Source: Escherichia phage 4A7
Sequence record: NC_049946.1
DNA length: 49,168 nucleotides
Direction: 5' to 3' (one strand)
The notes beneath the pieces were generated by a model that was not told the DNA's origin, ran no database searches, and saw only the letters and a program-made list of their open reading frames with translations. The position numbers and the translations under genes were made by a program. Shown piece by piece: positions 21,678-46,324 of the stretch. How positions within the stretch are numbered: the stretch's first letter is position 1; every line of letters begins with the position of its first letter.

Positions 21678-23291
21678 ATGAGTCAGAAATACCTCATTCG
21701 CATCGCAGAGCTGGAAAGGTTGCTCTCTGAGCAGGCTGAAGCCCTCCGTCAGAAAGACCAGCAACTGAGTCTGGTTGAAGAGACGGAAGCCTTCCTGCGC
21801 TCTGCACTGACACGTGCCGAAGAAAAGATCGAAGAAGATGAACGGGAAATAGAACATCTGCGGGCTCAGATAGAAAAACTGCGCCGGATGCTGTTCGGTA
21901 CCCGTTCTGAAAAACTGCGTCGTGAAGTTGAACTGGCTGAGGCTCTGCTGAAACAACGTGAACAGGACAGCGATCGTTACAGTGGGCGGGAAGACGATCC
22001 TCAGGTTCCCCGCCAGTTGCGACAGTCGCGCCATCGTCGTCCGTTACCGGCACACCTTCCCCGTGAAATACACCGCCTGGAGCCAGAAGAAAGCTGTTGC
22101 CCGGAGTGTGGCGGTGAGCTGGATTATCTGGGGGAAGTCAGCGCTGAACAGCTGGAACTGGTGAGCAGTGCCCTGAAAGTGATCCGCACAGAACGGGTAA
22201 AAAAAGCCTGTACAAAATGTGACTGTATTGTTGAAGCACCGGCGCCGTCCCGCCCGATAGAGCGTGGTATCGCGGGCCCCGGATTACTTGCCCGCGTGTT
22301 AACGGGAAAATACTGCGAACATCTGCCACTGTATCGTCAGAGTGAAATCTTTGCCCGCCAGGGTGTCGAACTGAGCCGGGCCTTACTCTCCAACTGGGTT
22401 GACGCGTGCTGCCAGTTAATGACACCGGTGAATGATGCCCTGTACCGTTATGTAATGAATACCCGCAAGGTTCACACTGATGACACACCGGTAAAGGTAC
22501 TGGCACCGGGTCAGAAAAAGGCGAAAACAGGGCGTATCTGGACGTATGTCCGGGATGATCGCAATGTGGGTTCGTCATCTCCTCCAGCGGTCTGGTTCGC
22601 GTACTCGCCGAACCGGCAGGGGAAACACCCGGAGCAACACCTCCGCCCCTTCCGGGGTATCCTGCAGGCGGATGCGTTCACAGGTTACGACAGGTTGTTC
22701 AGTGCAGAACGTGAAGGTGGTGCACTGACAGAAGTTGCGTGCTGGGCCCATGCCCGGCGAAAAATCCACGATGTATACATCAGCAGCAAAAGTGCGACGG
22801 CAGAAGAAGCCCTGAAGCGAATCAGTGAACTGTACGCCATCGAGGATGAAATACGGGGATTACCGGAGTCAGAGCGTCTTGCCGTCAGGCAGCAGCGAAG
22901 CAAAGTGTTACTGACGTCGCTGCATGAATGGATGGTGGAGAAGAATGGTACGCTGTCGAAAAAATCCAGACTGGGCGAAGCGTTCAGCTATGTACTGAAT
23001 CAGTGGGATGCCCTCTGTTATTACAGTGATGACGGTCTGGCGGAGGCGGATAATAATGCTGCGGAAAGAGCGCTTCGTGCAGTCTGTCTCGGAAAGAAAA
23101 ACTTTATGTTCTTTGGCAGCGATCACGGCGGCGAGCGTGGAGCACTGTTGTACGGGCTGATCGGCACCTGCCGTCTGAACGGTATCGATCCGGAAGCGTA
23201 TCTGCGCCATATCCTGAGCGTACTGCCGGAATGGCCTTCCAACCGAGTTGACGAACTCCTGCCATGGAACGTAGTACTCACCAATAAATAA
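21678..23291 (+). CDS. tnpC: IS66-family transposase (TnpC)
   Basis: 537 aa with an N-terminal coiled coil/leucine zipper, a CxxC...CxxC zinc motif and a DDE-type core; position and size typical of IS66 TnpC. Confidence 0.85.
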   Translation: MSQKYLIRIAELERLLSEQAEALRQKDQQLSLVEETEAFLRSALTRAEEKIEEDEREIEHLRAQIEKLRRMLFGTRSEKLRREVELAEALLKQREQDSDRYSGREDDPQVPRQLRQSRHRRPLPAHLPREIHRLEPEESCCPECGGELDYLGEVSAEQLELVSSALKVIRTERVKKACTKCDCIVEAPAPSRPIERGIAGPGLLARVLTGKYCEHLPLYRQSEIFARQGVELSRALLSNWVDACCQLMTPVNDALYRYVMNTRKVHTDDTPVKVLAPGQKKAKTGRIWTYVRDDRNVGSSSPPAVWFAYSPNRQGKHPEQHLRPFRGILQADAFTGYDRLFSAEREGGALTEVACWAHARRKIHDVYISSKSATAEEALKRISELYAIEDEIRGLPESERLAVRQQRSKVLLTSLHEWMVEKNGTLSKKSRLGEAFSYVLNQWDALCYYSDDGLAEADNNAAERALRAVCLGKKNFMFFGSDHGGERGALLYGLIGTCRLNGIDPEAYLRHILSVLPEWPSNRVDELLPWNVVLTNK

Positions 23292-24134: not shown

Positions 24135-24992
24135 CTAATTGGGTGATAACAGATCCTGTGTATGGGAGTTTCCCTTTTTGCGTGCGTTGATGCTGGTAAC
24201 GGCAAACGTCATGATGAACAAAACCGCGAATAAGACGACAATCGTCGGAGCTGGTGCGCTGTCGATAAAAAAGGACAACCAGACACCAGTCATTGACACT
24301 ATTACCGATATGCCAGTCGCCAGTAGGAGCGCAATATGAAAGCGTTGTGTCAGGAGTACCGCAATGGCGCCAGGCGCAATGAGCAGAGAAATGGAGAGAA
24401 TGATACCTACCGCTTTCAGCGTCGCCACAATGGTCAGAGAGACCATGCACAGCAGCCCATAATGCAGCCATCTCGTATGCAAACCGCTTACCTGCGCCTG
24501 TTGATAATCAAAGCTGAACAGCAAAAAATCCCGCCATTTTACGCTAATAACAAGTGTAACCAGCCCGGCAATAATCATCGTCTGGATTATATCGCCGATG
24601 GTTATCCCGAGCATGTCGCCGAAAAGAATATGGTCAAGATGTACGTCTGGTTTGACTGCAATATACAAGATCAGACCTGCGGCAAACATGCCAGAAAAAA
24701 CAATCCCCATCACTGTATCTTGCTTGATTCGGCTGTTGTCTTTCAGGTATCCCGTCGCCACCGCGCAGAATACTCCGGCGACGAATGCCCCTGTAGCCAA
24801 AGGTAACCCCAGAATCCAGGCAAGCACGATGCCAGGAAAAACCGCATGACTCATCGCGTCACCCATCAGTGCCCAACCTTTCAGGACCAGAAAGACCGAC
24901 AGCAGCGCACAGGGTATGGAAACTACCAGTGAAATCAGCAGTGCGTGACTCATAAAGGTGAACTGCAGTGGCTCCAGTAATAATGCCATCAT
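24135..24992 (-). CDS. sitD: Mn/Fe ABC transporter permease SitD
   Basis: 285-aa polytopic membrane protein, last gene of the sitABCD-type operon, overlapping sitC. Confidence 0.85.
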   Translation of the reverse strand: MMALLLEPLQFTFMSHALLISLVVSIPCALLSVFLVLKGWALMGDAMSHAVFPGIVLAWILGLPLATGAFVAGVFCAVATGYLKDNSRIKQDTVMGIVFSGMFAAGLILYIAVKPDVHLDHILFGDMLGITIGDIIQTMIIAGLVTLVISVKWRDFLLFSFDYQQAQVSGLHTRWLHYGLLCMVSLTIVATLKAVGIILSISLLIAPGAIAVLLTQRFHIALLLATGISVIVSMTGVWLSFFIDSAPAPTIVVLFAVLFIMTFAVTSINARKKGNSHTQDLLSPN

Positions 24993-25846
24993 GAGCGATC
25001 CTCCAGCGCCTTATGCGCACGCCGACGATTTGCCAAAAGCCCATGGGTGGGCGCAAAGACAAATGCTAAAAGAAACAGCAGTGTCTGCGCCACCACGATG
25101 ATTCCACCTGTCGCGCCGTCCAGAAAGTAACTGACCCACGCGCCGAGGAAACTGGTTACACTGCCAATAGTTACAGCAATCATGAGCAGGCGGGGAAAAC
25201 GATCGGTTAACAACCATGCTGTTGCACCGGGAGTCACCACCAGACAGATCACCAGAAAGGCACCAACCGTTTGCAGCGCCGCAACGGTCGAAACCGACAG
25301 CAGGGTGAAGAAGAGGAGTTTTAATCTGCCCGGATGCAATCCAATAGCACGGGCGTGATTCTCGTCGAAAAAGGTCACCATAAGATCTTTCCATTTGAAA
25401 AAAAGCACGATGATCGAGAGAATGCCAATGATAGTGAGTTGCAGGATATCCGCCGGATCGATTGCCAGAATATTGCCCAGGACGATGGTCTGAATGTTCA
25501 CAGATGTCGGGTTCAATGACACCATAAACAGCCCCAGGCCAAAAAAGGACGAGAAGATCAGACCGATGATGGCATCTTCTTTTAAGCGGGTGCGTTGGTT
25601 AAGAAACAGCATGCTGCCCGCAGCCAGTCCGCCGGAAAAGAAGGCTCCCAGAGAAAACGGAAGCCCCAGCATATATGCCCCCGCAACACCCGGGACAATA
25701 GAGTGCGACAACGCATCGCCAATCAGCGACCAGCCTTTTAGCATCAGATAGCATGACAGGAAAGCGCAGAGACCGCCGACCATCGCCGAGACCCACATCG
25801 CATTGAGCATATATTCATAGCTGAAGGGTTCCAGTAGCACGTTCAT
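24989..25846 (-). CDS. sitC: Mn/Fe ABC transporter permease SitC
   Basis: 285-aa polytopic membrane protein, paralogous to sitD; overlaps sitB. Confidence 0.85.
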
Positions 25847-26670
25847 CTTTCTTCCCTCTGCACCGCTGACGGTCGATGAGCCACAAAAGGGCGTTCATCG
25901 TCAGTAATAATGCTTTCTTCCGAGCCGTTAAGTGTGACATGGCGCAGTACGCCGCTAAAAGCCAGCTCTAGGTTCTCGGCTGTAAAAGTGGTGTCTGTCG
26001 GCCCGCTTGCCAGGACGGTGCCTTTGACCATGACCGTATAATCGCAAAATGTCGTGACGGATCCGAGATTGTGTGTTGAGACAAGCATCGTTTTGCCTTC
26101 CGCGCGTAACTCCCTCAACAGGCTGATGATTTTGGCTTCGGTTTTCACATCAACGCCAGTAAAAGGTTCATCCAGCAGGATCACATCACCCTGCTGTGCA
26201 ATCGCTCTCGCCAGAAAGACGCGTTTCTTTTGTCCACCGGAAAGCTCGCCGATTTGTCGATGGCGAAAATTCACCATATCGACACGTTCCAGCGCATCGG
26301 TGACAATTTGACGATCCCTCTTTTTGGCGATACGCAACATACCCATATGCCCATAGCGGCCCATCATCACCACATCTTCCACCAGTACAGGAAATGACCA
26401 GTCAACCTCTTCTGACTGAGGGACGTAGGCAACCAGGTTTTTCTGTAACGCCTGTCGCGTGGGAATACCCAGAACAGATATCTTTCCGCTGGTCAGACGC
26501 ACAAATCCCATAATCGCTTTAAACAACGTCGATTTTCCGGAACCGTTTACCCCAACCAGAGCGGCAATAGATCCACTTGGTACTGTGAAGGATGCATCGC
26601 GCAGTGCTGTGTGCCCGTTATGCCAGGTGACAGCAACATCATTAACGACAATGCCTGCAGATTGCATCAT
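25843..26670 (-). CDS. sitB: Mn/Fe ABC transporter ATP-binding protein SitB
   Basis: Walker [13 protein letters not shown] signature LSGGQKKR, Walker B ILLDEP. Confidence 0.9.
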
Positions 26671-27584
26671 TATTTCTCCCTTTTCCCGGCTTTAATTCCC
26701 TGTACCAGCGTACTGGTAGTAACCTTAAGAAGGTCGATATACGTCGGTACCGGGCCGTTTTCTGTGCTCAGGGAATCGACATAGAGCACACCGCCGTAGT
26801 GTGCGCCGGTTTCACGCGCAACCTGACGCGCTGGTTTATCGGAAATCGTACTCTCGCTAAAGACTGCCGGGATATGATTTTTCTTAACTATATCAACAAC
26901 CTTACGTACCTGCTGCGGTGTTCCTTGTTGATCGGCATTAATCGGCCACAGATAAAGCTCTTTTAGCCCCAAATCGCGTGCGAGATAAGAAAAAGCCCCT
27001 TCACTGGTGACCATCCATCGCTGATTCTCAGGGAGTTCCGTAATCTGCTTACGCAGGGGGGCAAGGGTTTGGGTAATCTTGGCTTTATAAGTATCGGCAT
27101 TGCGTTGGTAGGTTTGTGCATTTGCCGGATCGTATTTTATCAACGCATCACGAATATTATCGACGTAAATCAGAGCATTATCTGGCGACATCCATGCATG
27201 GGGGTTAGGTTTGCCCTCATAGGGTCCTTCGGTGATCCCTACAGGCGTCACACCCGAAGAGACAATTACTTCTGGAACCCCATTGAGATGCTGGTAAAAG
27301 CGTTGGAACCACAATTCCAGATTCATACCATTGGCGAGAATCAGTTGTGCCCCCTGCGCACGTTTAATATCGCCAGGGGTAGGCTGATACTCATGAATTT
27401 CTGCACCAGGCTTGGTTATGGATGAGACTTCTGCAGCATCTCCCGCCACGTTTTTGGCCATATCCGCGATGATGGTAAATGTTGTAATGACCTTAAATTT
27501 TTCAGTTGCACTTGCCTGAAATGCGATCGAGCAGGTGAGTGCGAGGCCCCCCAAGAGCATGGTTACTTTTTTTATTGAGCGCAT
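26670..27584 (-). CDS. sitA: periplasmic Mn/Fe-binding protein SitA
   Basis: 304 aa with signal peptide; cluster-9 (MntC/YfeA/SitA-type) solute-binding protein; first gene of the operon. Confidence 0.9.
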
Positions 27585-39224: not shown

Positions 39225-39557
39225 ATGAACCCTTATATTTATCTTGGTGGTGCAATACTTGCAGAGGTCATTGGTACAACCTTAATGAAGTTTTCAGAAG
39301 GTTTTACACGGTTATGGCCATCTGTTGGTACAATTATTTGTTATTGTGCATCATTCTGGTTATTAGCTCAGACGCTGGCTTATATACCTACAGGGATTGC
39401 TTATGCTATCTGGTCAGGAGTCGGTATTGTCCTGATTAGCTTACTATCATGGGGATTTTTCGGCCAACGGTTGGACCTGCCAGCCATTATAGGCATGATG
39501 TTGATTTGTGCCGGTGTGTTGGTTATTAATTTATTGTCACGAAGCACACCACATTAA
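39225..39557 (+). CDS. emrE: small multidrug resistance efflux transporter EmrE
   Basis: 110 aa, matches E. coli EmrE as recalled (MNPYIYLGGAILAEVIGTTLMKFSEGFTRLWPSVGTIICYCASFWLLAQTLAYIPTGIAYAIWSGVGIVLISLLSWGFFGQRLDLPAIIGMMLICAGVL...); emrE is DLP12-associated in K-12. Confidence 0.9.
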   Translation: MNPYIYLGGAILAEVIGTTLMKFSEGFTRLWPSVGTIICYCASFWLLAQTLAYIPTGIAYAIWSGVGIVLISLLSWGFFGQRLDLPAIIGMMLICAGVLVINLLSRSTPH

Positions 39558-39812: not shown

Positions 39813-41339
39813 ATGAAAAAAGCCATAGCATATATGCGATTTTCATCACCAGGTCAGATGTCTGGTGATTCATTAAACCGCCAGAGAAGGCTTATTACTG
39901 AATGGCTAAAGGTAAATAGTGATTATTACCTTGATACCGTAACGTATGAAGATTTGGGGTTAAGCGCATTCAATGGAAAGCATGCACAATCAGGAGCTTT
40001 TTCGGAATTTTTAGATGCTATAGAACATGGTTACATATTGCCAGGGACTACATTGTTAGTTGAAAGTCTGGACAGACTTTCAAGAGAAAAAGTCGGTGAA
40101 GCGATTGAGCGTCTGAAATTGATTTTGAATCACGGTATTGATGTTATAACTCTTTGCGATAATACAGTCTATAATATAGACTCATTGAATGAGCCATATT
40201 CATTAATAAAAGCCATACTTATAGCACAAAGGGCAAATGAAGAAAGCGAGATAAAGTCAAGTCGGGTTAAATTATCATGGAAGAAAAAACGGCAGGATGC
40301 ACTGGAATCAGGCACGATTATGACGGCGTCTTGTCCGAGATGGCTCTCATTGGATGACAAAAGAACAGCTTTTATTCCAGACCCCGACAGGGTGAAAACG
40401 ATTGAGCTAATTTTTAAACTCAGGATGGAAAGGCGATCATTGAATGCAATAGCTAAGTATTTAAATGATCATGCTGTAAAAAATTTTTCAGGAAAAGAAA
40501 GTGCATGGGGGCCTTCTGTAATTGAAAAATTATTAGCGAATAAAGCTCTGATAGGTATATGCGTACCTTCATATCGTGCAAGAGGGAAAGGGATAAGTGA
40601 AATCGCTGGCTATTATCCCAGAGTCATATCAGATGATTTGTTTTACGCTGTACAGGAAATTCGGTTGGCACCTTTTGGTATTAGCAATAGTAGCAAGAAT
40701 CCTATGCTAATAAATCTACTTCGAACAGTTATGAAGTGTGAGGCTTGTGGTAATACCATGATTGTTCATGCGGTATCTGGACGTTTGCATGGCTATTATG
40801 TTTGTCCGATGAGAAGATTACATCGATGTGACAGGCCATCAATAAAAAGAGATTTGGTTGATTATAATATCATTAATGAATTGCTTTTTAATTGTAGCAA
40901 AATTCAACCAGTTGAAAACAAGAAAGATGCTAATGAAACTTTAGAGTTAAAAATTATTGAGCTTCAGATGAAAATTAATAATTTAATCGTTGCATTGTCT
41001 GTCGCGCCTGAAGTTACCGCTATAGCAGAGAAAATAAGACTATTAGATAAGGAATTACGAAGGGCTTCGGTATCATTAAAAACTTTGAAGAGTAAAGGGG
41101 TGAGTTCACTTGGTGATTTTCATGCTATTGATTTAACCAGTAAAAATGGGCGAGAGCTATGTCGTACACTTGCCTATAAAATATTCGAAAAAATTATAAT
41201 TAATACAGATAATAAAACCTGTGATATCTATTTTATGAATGGCATTGTTTTTAAACACTATCCTTTAATGAAAGTAATATCCGCCCAGCAGGCGATAAGT
41301 ACTCTTAAATATATGGTTGATGGTGAGGTTTATTTTTGA
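39813..41339 (+). CDS. ybcK: large serine recombinase (YbcK-like)
   Basis: 508 aa; N-terminal resolvase/invertase catalytic domain (AIAYMRFSSPGQ...SLNRQ), central recombinase domain, Cys-rich zinc ribbon (CEACGN...CPMRRLHRC) and C-terminal coiled coil; AT-rich. Confidence 0.85.
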   Translation: MKKAIAYMRFSSPGQMSGDSLNRQRRLITEWLKVNSDYYLDTVTYEDLGLSAFNGKHAQSGAFSEFLDAIEHGYILPGTTLLVESLDRLSREKVGEAIERLKLILNHGIDVITLCDNTVYNIDSLNEPYSLIKAILIAQRANEESEIKSSRVKLSWKKKRQDALESGTIMTASCPRWLSLDDKRTAFIPDPDRVKTIELIFKLRMERRSLNAIAKYLNDHAVKNFSGKESAWGPSVIEKLLANKALIGICVPSYRARGKGISEIAGYYPRVISDDLFYAVQEIRLAPFGISNSSKNPMLINLLRTVMKCEACGNTMIVHAVSGRLHGYYVCPMRRLHRCDRPSIKRDLVDYNIINELLFNCSKIQPVENKKDANETLELKIIELQMKINNLIVALSVAPEVTAIAEKIRLLDKELRRASVSLKTLKSKGVSSLGDFHAIDLTSKNGRELCRTLAYKIFEKIIINTDNKTCDIYFMNGIVFKHYPLMKVISAQQAISTLKYMVDGEVYF

Positions 41340-41624
41340 GTAATAATCACTTTTTCAACCGTGCTATGGTATGAAAGTAAAGTAACTAATATGATATTAA
41401 CTATCTTGAACGAAGCGCCCTGAGCTATAGTTTTACTATAGGCACTGTCACTGGATGTTGGCATTCTTGCTCTAGTAGCTCAACAATACCCAATCACAAA
41501 ACAATTCACTGATAACAAACTTTGTGCACGTGCTTGGTTATGGCGAACAGGTGATGTTAACCTCTTGCCAGAATGCCACTCCACTTCATTAAGTATCTGA
41601 GCACCGAGAGGCTGGTCACGCCCC

Positions 41625-41639
41625 CATTAAAAATAATTT
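41625..41639. repeat. 15-bp direct repeat CATTAAAAATAATTT, right copy
   Basis: Perfect match to 39552-39566. Confidence 0.5.
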
Positions 41640-41663
41640 CTTTTGAATCGAGTGAAATAGGTT

Positions 41664-41690
41664 AGCCCGCATAAGTGCGGGCTGCTTTTT
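41664..41690 (+). terminator. intrinsic terminator between convergent ybcK-side and esterase genes
   Basis: Stem AGCCCGC/GCGGGCT with loop ATAAG, followed by GCTTTTT. Confidence 0.55.
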
Positions 41691-42732
41691 ACAGGTCAGC
41701 GTTTGTTTTTTGTTGTTGGGTAGCGGTTTTTATGGGGGTTCCCAGGTTTTTAGTAAACCACTCAACAACTCTGTTTATAATAATTGGCTGATACCATGTA
41801 TTATCGCCATGCTCGGCCCCTTCTACCAGCACGTACTCAGCGTTATCACCGTTCTTCTTCAACATCCTGAATAGTTTGGCGCTTTGCTCAGGTGAAACCA
41901 GAGTGTCTTTGCTACCATGCATAATAAGAAATGGGGGTTTTACTCCTTTCATATGTCCGATTGGACTGGCGTTTAGCGCTTTTTCTTTTGACGCTGTGAT
42001 GGGGGCTCCCGCAAAATTTCTGAATGCAGGGCCATTGATCATTAAGGCTTCGGTTACGGCAGGAGAGCGATGAACCTCCTGCACTGATTCAGGGAACCCC
42101 TCGCCAATATTCAACAAGTCAGAAATCCCATAAAGTGTGGCAACTGCCTGAACATCTGAGGATTGCTGAAGAAAGTCACCTTTATCAAAGGTTTTGTCAC
42201 CATTTGTAGTTCCCATCATCTGGGCAAGCCATCCACCGGCAGAGTCACCCAGAACTCCGATTCTTTGAGGATCAATCCCATAATTGCTGGCATGCTCTCT
42301 CAGGTAACGTATTGCAGCTTTTCCATCCTCAACTGGTGCTGGAAATGTATCAGGAATTGTTCTGTATTCTACAGCGGCCACAACAAAACCAGCTTCTGCC
42401 AGAGCCATTCTCATTTCAATAAATTTGTCATGTTCAGAAGACATGAATCCGCCGCCGGGATAATAAATAATGGCTGGTTTTAAATCATTTGTTCGCGGGA
42501 CAAGAACTGACATGTGAAGCTGTCTGACAGAACGAGTTCCTTTTATCTGGGAATAAACAACATCACCAATGAGATCGACCTGGTTTCTGGTCGGTGAAAC
42601 ACTAATGATATCTGCACCCGGGGTGTAACCAGGAAGATTAGTCTGGACAGGTGTTGCACAACTCCCGACCGACATGGCCATTGACATACCATACAATAGT
42701 GTTGCAGATGATAATATCTTGTTAATTTTCAT
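41689..42732 (-). CDS. alpha/beta-hydrolase fold esterase/lipase, probable lipoprotein
   Basis: 347 aa; signal peptide with lipobox-like VGSC; HSL-family motifs YYPGGGF and GDSAGG (nucleophile elbow GxSxG); C-terminal His. Confidence 0.7.
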   Translation of the reverse strand: MKINKILSSATLLYGMSMAMSVGSCATPVQTNLPGYTPGADIISVSPTRNQVDLIGDVVYSQIKGTRSVRQLHMSVLVPRTNDLKPAIIYYPGGGFMSSEHDKFIEMRMALAEAGFVVAAVEYRTIPDTFPAPVEDGKAAIRYLREHASNYGIDPQRIGVLGDSAGGWLAQMMGTTNGDKTFDKGDFLQQSSDVQAVATLYGISDLLNIGEGFPESVQEVHRSPAVTEALMINGPAFRNFAGAPITASKEKALNASPIGHMKGVKPPFLIMHGSKDTLVSPEQSAKLFRMLKKNGDNAEYVLVEGAEHGDNTWYQPIIINRVVEWFTKNLGTPIKTATQQQKTNADL

Positions 42733-43179
42733 GTTTTACATGCCTTGACTTATCGGATGAAATTCTCTTACTGAATTTAACGGCAGTTTAATAGCCGTAC
42801 AACTCGTGGTAGCCAGGGAAATATCCCAGTCGTGGTTAAGGTTGTACTTGACGGCTATTATTTCAACAATGCTTAAAGTGAGAGCTTAAGGTTATGCGTA
42901 TGTTTTACAGTCCGAGTAGATTCTGACCAATAGCTTCTTTGTATAATTCTGTCAGAAATAAATCTTGGCTTGCATGAAGTTTGAGACCTTATCTTGTTTG
43001 ATTATGAATAATCAATTCGCCATAATTGTATCACCGGAGCCTGAACAACTCCGGTGACTTCTGCGCTAAACGGGGACGTTTATGCGCACACACAATCCAA
43101 ACTCTCTTCTCCCTTCACAGATGCAGAAATGCACCTGCGTTTTTTTGCATCCAGCGTCTGACCTCTGTGGAGGTGAAGC

Positions 43180-45241: not shown

Positions 45242-46324
45242 TTAGAACTGATAAACCAGACCTACAGCGACGATGTCGTCGGTATCAATACCAGCTGTTT
45301 TGGTAAACTTACTATCGTCAATTAAGTTGATTTTGTAATCAACAAAAGTGGACATGTTTTTATTAAAGTAGTAAGTAGCACCGACATCGACATACTTGAC
45401 TAAGTCTCGGTCACCATGAACACCAAGGTCTTTACCTTTTGACTGAAGGTAAGCAACAGATGGTCGCAGACCGAAGTCAAACTGATATTGTGCTACTGCT
45501 TCAAAGTTTTGTGCTTTGTTTGCAATATGGTTATTACCAAAAACGGTCATATTCTGAGTTTCAGAATATGTGGTAGCCAGATAGATATTGTTCGCATCAT
45601 ATTTCAGGCCTGCAGCCCATACTTCCGCATTTTTGCCGGAGGCATTGAATTTGCTCTTACCATAGGCGACCTGACCGTCAGTGCGATCTGATTTAGCATA
45701 GGTTGCACCCACGCCGAATCCTTCATACTCATAAGTAGTGGAGAAACCGAAACCATCACCATTGACTTCAGTTACGTCAGTGCGGTCATTTTTACCCTGA
45801 TACTGAGCAGCAAAGTTCAGGCCATCGACCAGACCAAAGAAGTCGTTGTTACGATAAGTTGCAACACCAGTAGTGCGACCAGTCATGAACACATCTGTTT
45901 GGGTCCAGGTATCACCACCGAATTCTGGCAGGACGTCAGTCCACGCACCGATGTCGTATGCTACACCGTAGTTACGGCCGTAATCGATTGAGCCGTAATC
46001 ACCAAATTTCAGGCCTGCAAATGCAAGACGGGTTTTGTCTTTGGAAGAACCTTGAGATTCAGCACGGTTGCCTTTGAATTCATATTCCCACTGACCGAAA
46101 CCAGTCAGTTGATCGTTGATTTGGGTTTCACCTTTGAAGCCAAGACGGGCATAAGTAGTATCACCATCATCTGCATCATTAGAGGAGAAGTAGTGCTTGG
46201 CATTAACTTTCCCGTATAGATCCAGCTTGTTACTGTCTTTATTATAAATTTCAGCTGCCTGAGCAGACATCGCCATCAGTACTGATGCAGCTACAGCAGA
46301 AATTGCCACTGTTAATTTTTTCAT
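45242..46324 (-). CDS. nmpC: OmpC/OmpF-family general porin (NmpC / Lc-like phage porin)
   Basis: 360 aa; signal peptide [23 protein letters not shown], porin motifs ([35 protein letters not shown]) and a C-terminal Phe. Confidence 0.9.

What the first reader, a model, noticed from the sequence alone, without database searches (positions are those of the whole stretch)
41689..42732. Secreted esterase/lipase lipoprotein as nin-region cargo
The minus-strand 347-aa gene has a lipoprotein-like signal (lipobox-like VGSC) and hormone-sensitive-lipase-family motifs (YYPGGGF oxyanion region, GDSAGG nucleophile elbow). A cell-envelope hydrolase carried by a temperate phage is a possible lysogenic-conversion factor. 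It is convergent with ybcK and shares a terminator with it.
Basis: partly seen in the sequence, partly recalled or inferred. Interest (0 to 1): 0.4.

Follow-up and report, generated by a model that had tools for sequence, protein, structure and literature searches.

The report
Phage-borne exported feruloyl-type esterase gene
An inducible lambda-like E. coli phage carries, as a swappable cargo gene, an exported serine esterase whose closest relatives are plant-phenolic (feruloyl) esterases. About one in eight sequenced E. coli has it, but it belongs to a known enzyme family and no one has measured its activity.

Summary
The best family match is BD-FAE (PF20434, E 5.5e-45), the bifunctional feruloyl/acetyl-xylan esterases. 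This match is stronger than the one to the hormone-sensitive-lipase family proper. Ser164, Asp276 and His308 are invariant in homologues.

The window is a complete Bievrevirus genome, 100% identical across this region to phage Lambda_4C10. The gene lies in a 1.6-kb cassette (41379..42996) that occupies the place of ybcL-ybcM in K-12 DLP12. It is found in about 681 of 5426 complete E. coli genomes.

Homologues at 60-73% identity come mostly from plant-associated bacteria. Examples are Pantoea, Rhizobium, and a Dickeya protein named "Ferulate esterase". They carry ordinary signal peptides.

Only the closest clade (74-80% identity, on E. coli plasmids and in metagenomes) and the phage copy have a lipobox cysteine. 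Most members of that clade sit directly after a ferulic-acid decarboxylase gene.

My reading is an exported, probably lipid-anchored hydroxycinnamoyl-ester esterase acting as lysogenic-conversion cargo. Substrate, lipidation and expression are all inferred.

The "shared terminator" has its T-run on the plus strand and travels with the cassette. This is a new member of a known kind, of moderate interest.

The parts
41689..42732 (-). Esterase coding sequence, 347 aa, stop codon included (RefSeq WP_000700204.1 'alpha/beta hydrolase')
   Evidence: ORF list. Pfam BD-FAE 5.5e-45. Annotated identically in phage Lambda_4C10 and E. coli SE15. dN/dS 0.13 against the 96%-identical copy in L009.
42658..42732 (-). 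Signal peptide plus lipobox-like VGS-C (residues 1-25). It has an n-region MKINK, a hydrophobic core, and Cys25 followed by Ala26.
   Evidence: Sequence and the PROSITE-type pattern match. The Cys25 allele is present in at least 677 of 681 carrier genomes, and the Tyr allele in none. The cysteine is conserved in P0002, P0003, P0005, L009 and L093. The AF2 model is disordered over residues 1-28.
42445..42459 (-). PGGGF (residues 92-96), the oxyanion-hole loop
   Evidence: Invariant in the 29-sequence alignment A1. It lies within the stretch of PF20434 and PF07859 matched. The role as oxyanion loop is inferred from its equivalence to the HGGG loop of family IV esterases.
42232..42249 (-). GDSAGG nucleophile elbow (residues 162-167). 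The Ser164 codon is at 42241..42243.
   Evidence: G162, D163, S164, G166 and G167 are invariant. The motif aligns with the nucleophile motif of 6nkf, 6mly and 6xyc.
41905..41907 (-). Asp276 codon, the catalytic acid in HGSKD
   Evidence: Invariant. It aligns with the HGDxD motif of 6nkf, 6mly and 6xyc. The BD-FAE triad Ser128/Asp237/His269 is described in PMC8165983.
41809..41811 (-). His308 codon, the catalytic base in GAEHGD
   Evidence: Invariant. It aligns with the GxxHG motif of the solved relatives.
41663..41684 (+). GC-rich hairpin 5 nt beyond the esterase stop codon. It looks like an intrinsic terminator on the + strand and has only a weak tail on the - strand.
   Evidence: Terminator scan. 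Folding gives -20.3 kcal/mol with a U5 tail on the + strand, and -14.8 kcal/mol with tail AACCUAUUUC on the - strand. The hairpin is retained with the gene in the L009 remnant.
41379..42996 (.). Cargo cassette, about 1.6 kb. It holds the gene, the hairpin and about 264 bp of upstream DNA. It replaces ybcL-ybcM of K-12 DLP12 between conserved flanks.
   Evidence: blastn of the window against K-12 DLP12 loses similarity between 41378 and 42997. The L009 remnant keeps the equivalent of 41622..42974. GC content is 44.6% for the gene against 49.8% for the window.
42857..42884 (-). The only promoter-like site upstream of the gene: CTCTCA-N16-TGaAATAAT (extended -10), 124 nt before the ATG. It is weak and unverified.
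   Evidence: My own loose scan. The standard scan found no - strand promoter in the upstream spacer, and its total count was no higher than in shuffled sequence.

Best explanation
The gene encodes an exported Ser164-Asp276-His308 carboxylesterase of the BD-FAE / 'CE10' feruloyl-esterase type.

Proposed mechanism:
- After Sec export it is probably lipidated at Cys25. With Ala at +2, it would then be anchored in the outer membrane.
- There it would hydrolyse small hydroxycinnamoyl esters that reach the envelope. Candidates are feruloyl or p-coumaroyl oligosaccharides and chlorogenic acid. Acetyl esters may be a side activity.
- The products would be the free phenolic acid and the sugar or quinate moiety.

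Genetically it is a self-contained cargo cassette ('moron') in the nin-type region of a Bievrevirus prophage. It is transcribed against the early-right operon. It would therefore be expressed in the lysogen, when pR is repressed, and opposed by read-through transcription during lytic growth.

Shown here: the gene, its family, the triad, the signal peptide, the cassette boundaries, its distribution, purifying selection, and the gene linkage of its relatives.

Inferred: substrate, lipidation, localisation, and timing of expression.
For: Family and catalysis:
- Pfam BD-FAE scores 153.9 bits against a cut-off of 26.8.
- The best solved relatives are Lip_vut4 (6nkf, 1e-37), the GH43-CE of B. eggerthii (6mly) and BD-FAE itself (6xyc/6tkx).
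- The AF2 model (pTM 0.80) retrieves the same structures, at Foldseek E 9e-23 to 2e-17.
- S164, D276, H308 and PGGGF are invariant in 29 homologues.

Substrate, from gene context:
- The closest relatives (74-80% identity) lie 13-33 bp downstream of a phenolic-acid decarboxylase gene with a divergent LysR regulator. This holds in metagenome contigs and on E. coli IncFII plasmid pSCU-105-1.
- That decarboxylase matches Enterobacter ferulic acid decarboxylase 3NX1 at 2e-96.
- The same decarboxylase-esterase pair, on the same strand, recurs in 10 of 80 species' genomes. These span Serratia, Symbiopectobacterium, Mangrovibacter, Martelella, Azospirillum, Acinetobacter and Aeromonas. It was the only functionally suggestive neighbour shared across unrelated taxa; the other recurring neighbours look like lineage-specific synteny.
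- A 63-66% identical Dickeya protein is named 'Ferulate esterase' by its submitters. It sits beside a second paralogue, an MFS transporter and a LysR regulator. This fits the FaeD/FaeT pair of CE10 feruloyl esterases.

Export and lipobox:
-.

Cargo status:
- The cassette replaces ybcLM.
- About 681 of 5426 E. coli genomes carry it.
- It is 100% identical in six sequenced phages.
- It is retained, together with emrE, in a 5-kb prophage remnant next to bioA and ybhC, with dN/dS 0.13.
Against: - No activity, localisation or expression data exist for this protein in the literature I could search.
- The phage copy lacks the decarboxylase, and no remnant of one is present. About 85% of homologue loci also lack it. 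Context evidence is therefore indirect.
- BD-FAE family members also deacetylate xylan (PMC8165983). The best solved match is called a lipase.
- Position -2 of the lipobox is Gly, and signal peptidase I sites are available. Rare Cys25Tyr variants exist, namely P0001 and, in the sister clade, P0004.
- No convincing promoter was found.
- The identity of P0079 with the biochemically studied FaeD of D. dadantii 3937 could not be checked. The 2011 paper is not held.
Confidence: 0.55

Rival explanations
1. It is mainly a carbohydrate acetyl-esterase. Possible substrates are acetyl-xylan or pectin oligosaccharides, or O-acetyl groups on bacterial or host glycans such as O-antigen, capsule, peptidoglycan or mucin sugars. 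This could also affect phage receptor recognition or superinfection.
For: The founding BD-FAE enzyme removes both acetate and ferulate (PMC8165983). 6xyc and 6tkx are annotated as acetyl xylan / carbohydrate esterase. There are weak NCBIfam hits to pectin acetylesterase PaeX and acetylxylan esterase AxeA1. Most homologue loci have no decarboxylase neighbour.
Against: The NCBIfam hits are far below their cut-offs (47 against 550 bits; 42 against 700). The only functionally suggestive neighbour shared across unrelated taxa is a ferulic-acid decarboxylase. Nothing links the gene to glycan-synthesis or receptor genes.
Confidence: 0.2
2. It is a general lipase or carboxylesterase of the hormone-sensitive-lipase family acting on acylglycerols or other lipids at the cell envelope.
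For: Abhydrolase_3 hit at 1.1e-22. GDSAGG and GGG motifs are present. The best solved relative is deposited as 'Lipase Lip_vut4'. NCBIfam gives weak hits to LipQ, LipP1 and HSL subfamilies.
Against: The BD-FAE model scores almost twice as high as Abhydrolase_3. HGGG is changed to PGGG. The acid and base motifs are of the S9 type. Every HSL NCBIfam model is far below its cut-off, for example 54.8 against 380 bits. Gene context points to phenolic esters.
Confidence: 0.12
3. It is a soluble periplasmic enzyme released by signal peptidase I, and Cys25 is incidental. The enzymology would be as in the best explanation.
For: All homologues at or below 73% identity have plain AxA-type signal peptides. 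The window sequence offers AMS|V and VGS|C sites. Position -2 Gly is atypical for a lipobox. Rare Cys-to-Tyr variants occur (P0001, P0004).
Against: The Cys25 codon is present in at least 677 of 681 carrier genomes, and no Tyr allele occurs in 5426 complete genomes. The cysteine sits at the same position in P0002, P0003, P0005, L009 and L093 despite 20-25% divergence. The N-terminus fits the PROSITE-type lipoprotein pattern.
Confidence: 0.35
4. It is a silent passenger, with no function for either phage or host.
For: No promoter above chance. No literature on expression.
Against: The reading frame and triad are intact. dN/dS is 0.13 against the diverged copy. The gene is kept in a 5-kb prophage remnant that has lost nearly all phage genes. 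In 644 E. coli records the 1.7-kb stretch matches at 99% identity or more.
Confidence: 0.07

Closest known systems
BD-FAE (Pfam PF20434; PDB 6XYC/6TKX), a bifunctional feruloyl and acetyl-xylan esterase from a Bacteroidetes polysaccharide utilisation locus (PMC8165983)
   Same: Best-scoring family model. Alpha/beta-hydrolase fold. The Ser-Asp-His triad sits at aligned positions, with the G-x-S-x-G elbow and the HGxxDxxV / GxxHG acid and base motifs.
   Different: Only about 27% identical. BD-FAE is encoded in a xylan-utilisation locus of Bacteroidetes. This one is a lone gene in an E. coli phage with a lipobox-type signal peptide. Its activity is untested.
Dickeya feruloyl esterases FaeD/FaeT (CE10). 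FaeD is secreted by the Out type II system (PMC9007343, PMC10319131).
   Same: 63-66% identity to the signal-peptide-bearing Dickeya protein that its submitters named 'Ferulate esterase'. 47% identity to the adjacent 328-aa paralogue. Same motifs.
   Different: The Dickeya protein has an ordinary signal peptide. It is chromosomal, next to MFS and LysR genes, and belongs to a plant-cell-wall degrading repertoire. I could not verify residue by residue that P0079 is the orthologue of the assayed D. dadantii 3937 FaeD.
LysR - ferulic/phenolic acid decarboxylase - esterase modules, for example on E. coli plasmid pSCU-105-1 (WP_169063298/WP_169063299)
   Same: These are the nearest relatives of the phage protein (74-80% identity). 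They share the derived lipobox cysteine.
   Different: The phage cassette carries the esterase alone, with no decarboxylase or regulator and no remnant of either. DNA similarity is confined to the coding region, at about 75%. The module is rare in E. coli: 1-2 of 5426 genomes, against about 681 for the phage copy.
Lip_vut4 (PDB 6NKF), a goat-rumen metagenome 'lipase'
   Same: Best solved sequence and fold match: 1e-37, about 30% identity, Foldseek 9e-23.
   Different: The relationship is distant and the genomic context is unknown. The name 'lipase' is the depositors' and says little about the natural substrate.
Envelope morons of lambdoid prophages: the lambda Bor lipoprotein, and the NanS-p sialate O-acetyl esterases of Stx prophages (comparison from my own knowledge)
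   Same: Accessory genes that are not needed for phage growth. They lie in variable slots, act at or beyond the envelope, and are thought to benefit the lysogen. Bor is also encoded opposite to the surrounding operon.
   Different: Bor is not an enzyme. The NanS-p proteins are SGNH hydrolases in the late region. Neither is related in sequence to this alpha/beta hydrolase.

Membership tests
BD-FAE (PF20434) esterases | Score above Pfam's gathering threshold over most of the model | tested here: met
   153.9 bits against 26.8; residues 80-290 match model positions 7-214 of 215.
BD-FAE (PF20434) esterases | Ser-Asp-His triad at the positions of Ser128/Asp237/His269 of BD-FAE | tested here: met
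   S164, D276 and H308 align with the corresponding motifs of 6xyc, 6mly and 6nkf. They are invariant in 29 homologues. The BD-FAE triad is described in PMC8165983.
BD-FAE (PF20434) esterases | Alpha/beta-hydrolase fold close to 6XYC/6TKX | tested here: met
   AF2 model with pTM 0.80. Foldseek gives 6xyc 2.4e-18 (TM 0.62/0.74) and 6tkx 2.4e-17 (TM 0.64/0.75). The 3-D geometry of the triad was not inspected.
BD-FAE (PF20434) esterases | Feruloyl-esterase and/or acetyl-xylan-esterase activity | not testable with these tools
   Only indirect support, from linkage of relatives to ferulic acid decarboxylase.
Hormone-sensitive-lipase family (bacterial family IV, Pfam Abhydrolase_3) | HGGG oxyanion motif | tested here: not met
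   The sequence is Y-P-G-G-G-F. The histidine is replaced by Pro92, which is invariant in the homologues.
Hormone-sensitive-lipase family (bacterial family IV, Pfam Abhydrolase_3) | GDSAG-type nucleophile elbow | tested here: met
   GDSAGG at residues 162-167.
Hormone-sensitive-lipase family (bacterial family IV, Pfam Abhydrolase_3) | Best-scoring family model, and reaching curated HSL subfamily cut-offs | tested here: not met
   Abhydrolase_3 scores 81.3 bits against 153.9 for BD-FAE. NCBIfam GTSAG, GESAG and GCSAG HSL models score 54.8, 47.5 and 32.3 bits against cut-offs of 380-430. The C-terminal half matches Peptidase_S9.
Bacterial lipoproteins (signal peptidase II substrates) | Positively charged n-region, hydrophobic core, and a lipobox ending in Cys within residues 15-35 | tested here: met
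   MKINK, then ILSSATLLYGMSMAMS, then V-G-S-C25. This matches the PROSITE-type pattern {DERK}(6)-[LIVMFWSTAG](2)-[LIVMFYSTAGCQ]-[AGS]-C.
Bacterial lipoproteins (signal peptidase II substrates) | Strict lipobox [LVI][ASTVI][GAS]C | tested here: not met
   Position -2 is Gly. The sister sequences have S-A-G-C or S-T-G-C, with Ser at -3.
Bacterial lipoproteins (signal peptidase II substrates) | Conservation of the cysteine | tested here: met
   At least 677 of 681 E. coli carriers have the exact 55-nt Cys allele, and none has the Tyr allele. The Cys is kept in P0002, P0003, P0005, L009 and L093. Rare Tyr variants are P0001 and P0004.
Bacterial lipoproteins (signal peptidase II substrates) | Lgt/LspA-dependent lipidation and processing | not testable with these tools
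   Needs globomycin, lipid labelling and a C25A mutant.
Phage moron / lysogenic-conversion cargo | A discrete insert between conserved phage genes, with alternative contents in relatives | tested here: met
   Window 41379..42996 replaces ybcL-ybcM of DLP12 between flanks that are 95-96% identical. 2822 genomes match part of the 1.7-kb query, but only about 670-681 hold the gene.
Phage moron / lysogenic-conversion cargo | Own promoter and terminator | tested here: inconclusive
   The hairpin adjoins the stop codon, but its T-run faces the + strand. Only one weak extended -10 candidate lies upstream.
Phage moron / lysogenic-conversion cargo | Expressed from the repressed prophage and changes the host phenotype | not testable with these tools
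   No expression or phenotype data found.
Dickeya FaeD-type feruloyl esterases (CE10) | Orthology to the biochemically assayed FaeD | tested here: inconclusive
   63-66% identity to P0079, which is named 'Ferulate esterase', has a signal peptide, and is paired with a 328-aa paralogue.

The most novel reading that the evidence does not exclude
This prophage cassette is the genetic basis of the strain-variable cinnamoyl-esterase phenotype of gut E. coli. That phenotype is the hydrolysis of chlorogenic acid and feruloyl esters, reported for three human colonic E. coli isolates (cited in PMC10340781). If so, a temperate phage spreads a diet-polyphenol-processing trait by lysogenic conversion. The enzyme would have been re-targeted from a soluble secreted form to an outer-membrane lipoprotein when it entered the E. 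coli mobile gene pool.
Probability: 0.3. Interest if true: 0.55.

Novelty: new member of a known kind. Interest (0 to 1): 0.35.

Why it matters
If the inferred activity is right, about 12% of sequenced E. coli obtain a plant-phenolic-ester hydrolase from an active temperate phage. These include B2 strains such as SE15 and the AIEC strain NRG857c. That would be an example of phage-borne metabolic cargo, as opposed to toxin or immunity cargo, acting on dietary compounds in the gut. It would also name a candidate gene for the cinnamoyl-esterase activity seen in only some E. coli isolates. The switch of signal-peptide type within one enzyme family could serve as a small natural experiment in protein re-targeting. 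If the activity is instead a generic esterase, the finding is an ordinary accessory gene.

Tried and rejected
- Decarboxylase remnant. I looked for a phenolic-acid decarboxylase remnant or any shared non-coding DNA next to the phage gene. tblastn and blastn found none, and similarity to the plasmid and metagenome relatives ends at the coding region.
- Promoter. The standard sigma-70 scan found no - strand promoter upstream, and its total count equalled that of shuffled sequence. A looser scan gave one weak extended -10 candidate.
- Tyr25 allele. The 90%-identity cluster representative P0001 has Tyr25, so I tested whether that is the common allele. It is not: 0 of 5426 genomes carry it.
- Literature. 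I searched for the E. coli protein, the phage genus and the ybcK/emrE neighbourhood. Nothing on this gene turned up.
- Primary FaeD paper. The Dickeya FaeD paper (J Bacteriol 2011) is not held. A search for a described decarboxylase-esterase operon gave nothing specific.
- Phage PHB10. Its record holds a 73%-identical homologue, but it lies among ordinary bacterial genes (LysR, amidohydrolase, gluconolactonase). I do not count it as an independent phage acquisition.
- Triad geometry.
Full report
**1. The observation**

The minus-strand ORF at 41689..42732 (347 aa, ATG start) is present exactly as described. It translates to MKINKILSSATLLYGMSMAMSVGSC25ATPVQ... The GGGF motif starts at residue 93, GDSAGG spans residues 162-167, HGSKD starts at 272 and EHGD at 307.

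It is a real gene. The Pfam matches are:
- BD-FAE (PF20434), E 5.5e-45, 153.9 bits.
- Abhydrolase_3, 1.1e-22.
- Peptidase_S9, 3.1e-18, on the C-terminal third.

PGAP and the phage record both annotate the same frame as 'alpha/beta hydrolase'. The gene is convergent with ybcK (39813..41339, +).

**2. Where the window comes from**

The 1.7-kb stretch is 100% identical to that of Escherichia virus Lambda_4C10 (genus Bievrevirus) and of phages D2, 1W, 3W and PhiR47_2. It is 99.9% identical to phage Perceval. The window's gene order matches these phages: terminase, head, tail, int, exo/bet, repressor, O, P, ren..., Q, lysis. bv_4C10 is inducible and forms plaques (bioRxiv 10.64898/2026.05.26.727859).

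The local order is ren-emrE-ybcK-[esterase, opposite strand]-ylcH-ybcN-ninE-ybcO-rusA-ylcG-quuD-porin. This is the nin-type region of a relative of DLP12.

**3. Cassette anatomy**

Against K-12 DLP12, similarity of 95-96% runs up to window position 41378 and resumes at 42997. The 1,618 bp in between replace the 1.8 kb that holds ybcL-ybcM in K-12.

A 96%-identical copy of the protein (94% at DNA level) exists in Escherichia sp. MOD1-EC7003 (L009). It lies in a remnant of about 5 kb between bioA and ybhC that keeps little more than emrE and the esterase. The unit conserved there corresponds to window 41622..42974: the gene, the hairpin after it, and about 240 bp upstream.

Comparing the two copies gives dN/dS of 0.13, from 13 non-synonymous and 28 synonymous differences. 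The gene has 44.6% G+C against 49.8% for the window.

**4. The 'shared terminator'**

A stable GC-rich hairpin at 41663..41684 lies 5 nt beyond the esterase stop codon. Its run of T is on the + strand: TAGCCCGCATAAGTGCGGGCTG-CTTTTT, -20.3 kcal/mol. On the esterase strand the tail is AACCTATTTC.

It is therefore best described as a + strand terminator. It stops early-right transcripts about 325 nt after ybcK, just before they would run antisense into the esterase gene. It is at most a weak terminator for the esterase itself. It belongs to the cassette rather than to ybcK.

No minus-strand promoter was found by the standard scan. A loose scan gives a single extended -10 candidate (TGaAATAAT) 124 nt upstream of the ATG.

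**5. Family, fold and catalytic residues**

The best solved relatives by sequence are:
- Lip_vut4 from a goat rumen metagenome (6nkf, 1e-37).
- The GH43-CE of Bacteroides eggerthii (6mly, 3e-22).
- BD-FAE itself (6xyc and 6tkx, about 2e-21).

An AF2 model (mean pLDDT 78, pTM 0.80, residues 1-28 disordered) retrieves the same structures.

In an alignment of 29 homologues at 62-79% identity, P92-G-G-G-F96, G162-D-S164, D276 (in HGxxD) and H308 (in GAxHGD) are invariant. These align with the nucleophile, acid and base motifs of the solved enzymes. They correspond to the Ser128/Asp237/His269 triad described for BD-FAE (PMC8165983).

The protein is not a typical hormone-sensitive-lipase family member:
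- The His of HGGG is replaced by Pro.
- The acid and base motifs are of the Peptidase_S9 type.
- All curated NCBIfam HSL and esterase models score far below their cut-offs.

**6. Signal peptide**

The N-terminus has two lysines and a hydrophobic core of about 17 residues, then V-G-S-C25 followed by Ala. It fits the broad PROSITE-type lipoprotein pattern but not the strict lipobox, because of Gly at -2.

Evidence on the cysteine:
- A 55-nt probe centred on the Cys codon matches 681 of 5426 complete E. coli genomes, 677 of them perfectly.
- The same probe with TAT (Tyr) matches none.
- The 90%-identity cluster representative P0001 does carry Tyr, so that variant is rare.
- The cysteine is also present in the nearest relatives P0002, P0003, P0005, L009 and the plasmid copy L093. 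One sister sequence, P0004, has Tyr.

None of the listed homologues at or below 73% identity has a credible lipobox. This covers the 120 proteins and 72 of the 73 esterase ORFs found in the 80 species' genomes. They carry ordinary AxA-type signal peptides, or in some cases none. The few pattern hits among them are cysteines inside the hydrophobic core.

The lipobox is therefore a derived feature of the small clade that circulates on E. coli mobile elements. Lipidation itself is inferred. Signal peptidase I sites (AMS|V, VGS|C) are also available.

**7. What the enzyme probably hydrolyses**

The relatives at 60-73% identity are mostly from plant-associated bacteria. Examples are Pantoea (40 of 73 plasmid hits), Dickeya, Pectobacterium, Kosakonia, Klebsiella, Rhizobium/Agrobacterium, Sphingomonas and Methylobacterium. 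Gut Sutterellaceae are also represented.

A phenolic-acid decarboxylase gene is the only functionally suggestive neighbour found in the nearest clade and, across unrelated taxa, in the 80 species' genomes. The other recurring neighbour clusters look like lineage-specific synteny.
- It lies immediately upstream on the same strand in the nearest clade. This holds for P0005 and P0002 and for E. coli IncFII plasmid pSCU-105-1, where PGAP also calls it phenolic acid decarboxylase.
- The same arrangement occurs in 10 of 80 species' genomes spanning Alpha- and Gammaproteobacteria. A divergent LysR regulator gene recurs in a similar number of these loci (10).
- That neighbour matches Enterobacter ferulic acid decarboxylase 3NX1 at 2e-96.

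In Dickeya, the signal-peptide-bearing homologue is named 'Ferulate esterase' by the genome's authors. It lies about 3 kb from a 328-aa paralogue that is 47% identical to the window protein, with an MFS transporter and a LysR gene between them. This fits the FaeD/FaeT pair of CE10 feruloyl esterases, of which FaeD is secreted (PMC9007343, PMC10319131). I could not verify the identity against the assayed protein.

Together with the BD-FAE family assignment, this makes hydroxycinnamoyl esters the most likely substrates. Candidates are feruloyl or p-coumaroyl sugars and chlorogenic acid, with acetyl esters as a possible side activity.

The phage cassette has no decarboxylase or regulator, and no remnant of either. 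The full module is very rare in E. coli, at 1-2 of 5426 genomes.

**8. Proposed mode of action and its status**

- Shown: the gene, its family, the triad, the signal peptide, the cassette, its distribution, and purifying selection.
- Inferred: Sec export, lipidation at Cys25 and sorting to the outer membrane (Ala at +2, by the established Lol rule).
- Inferred: hydrolysis of small phenolic esters that reach the envelope.
- Inferred: expression from the repressed prophage, because the gene is transcribed against the early-right operon. Antiterminated read-through would oppose it during lytic growth.

Human colonic E. coli isolates able to hydrolyse chlorogenic acid have been reported (three strains, as cited in PMC10340781). 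Whether this gene is responsible is untested.

**9. Novelty and verdict**

The protein is in every database as an unnamed 'alpha/beta hydrolase' (WP_000700204.1; UniRef A0A0H3EIG2_ECO8N; seen on 1000 or more contigs). I found no functional work on it.

It is a new member of a known enzyme family in a known kind of genetic slot. Three points are of some interest:
- The link to ferulate metabolism.
- The acquisition of a lipobox.
- The phage is by far the main vehicle of this family in E. coli.

Its interpretation is partly supported. Esterase, export and cargo status hold up. The lipase/HSL label and the terminator statement need correction. Lipoprotein status and lysogenic conversion remain hypotheses.

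Noticed in passing
window 24135-27584 (-): A four-gene metal ABC importer sits in the b-region of the phage: a ZnuA-family binding protein, an ABC ATPase and two ABC-3 permeases. From my own knowledge the layout resembles sitABCD. This is a second, larger cargo block carried by an active temperate phage.
   Followed up: partly
window 21678-23291 (+): An IS66-family transposase gene (four IS66 Pfam domains) lies inside the phage genome, between the tail-fibre region and the ABC transporter block.
   Followed up: partly
window 39225-39557 (+): The small multidrug efflux gene emrE is carried by this plaque-forming phage, directly after ren. Together with the esterase, it is one of the few genes kept in the 5-kb prophage remnant L009.
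   Followed up: partly
window 45242-46324 (-): An intact 360-aa general porin gene (Porin_1, 3e-151) lies between Q and the lysis genes. The K-12 DLP12 counterpart, nmpC, is split by IS5.
   Followed up: partly
L009 4000-9000 (Escherichia sp. MOD1-EC7003): A prophage remnant of about 5 kb lies between bioA and ybhC. It retains emrE and the esterase but lacks ybcK and the nin genes. The esterase copy has dN/dS 0.13 against the window copy.
   Followed up: yes
P0001 (E. coli cluster representative) and P0004: Rare variants have Tyr in place of the lipobox cysteine (TGT to TAT). None occurs among 5426 complete E. coli genomes.
   Followed up: yes
L007 515-7229: A sister esterase (P0003 cluster, 80% identity, lipobox STGC, members named from E. 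coli) lies near a SPATE-type autotransporter (Peptidase_S6) and a PerC-family gene. This is a virulence-island or plasmid-like context, not a prophage.
   Followed up: no
L090 (Escherichia phage PHB10, MK524177.1 16963-27859): This phage record holds a 73%-identical homologue without a signal peptide. It lies among ordinary bacterial genes (LysR, amidohydrolase, gluconolactonase, aromatic alcohol reductase), next to rusA and an antiterminator gene. It may be host DNA picked up by, or assembled with, a prophage.
   Followed up: partly
L091 5001-10076 (Dickeya chromosome CM001983.1, assembly GCA_000406285.1): Two BD-FAE paralogues lie about 3 kb apart, separated by an MFS transporter and a LysR regulator. 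One is 343 aa with a signal peptide and the other 328 aa. They probably correspond to FaeD and FaeT.
   Followed up: partly
window 43119-43142 (+): A second terminator-like hairpin followed by a run of T lies on the + strand just upstream of ybcN, in the conserved right flank of the cassette.
   Followed up: no
window 39813-41339 (+): ybcK encodes a large serine recombinase (Resolvase, Recombinase and zinc-ribbon domains) in a very AT-rich stretch (32-39% G+C). It is absent from the L009 remnant, where emrE abuts the esterase cassette.
   Followed up: partly
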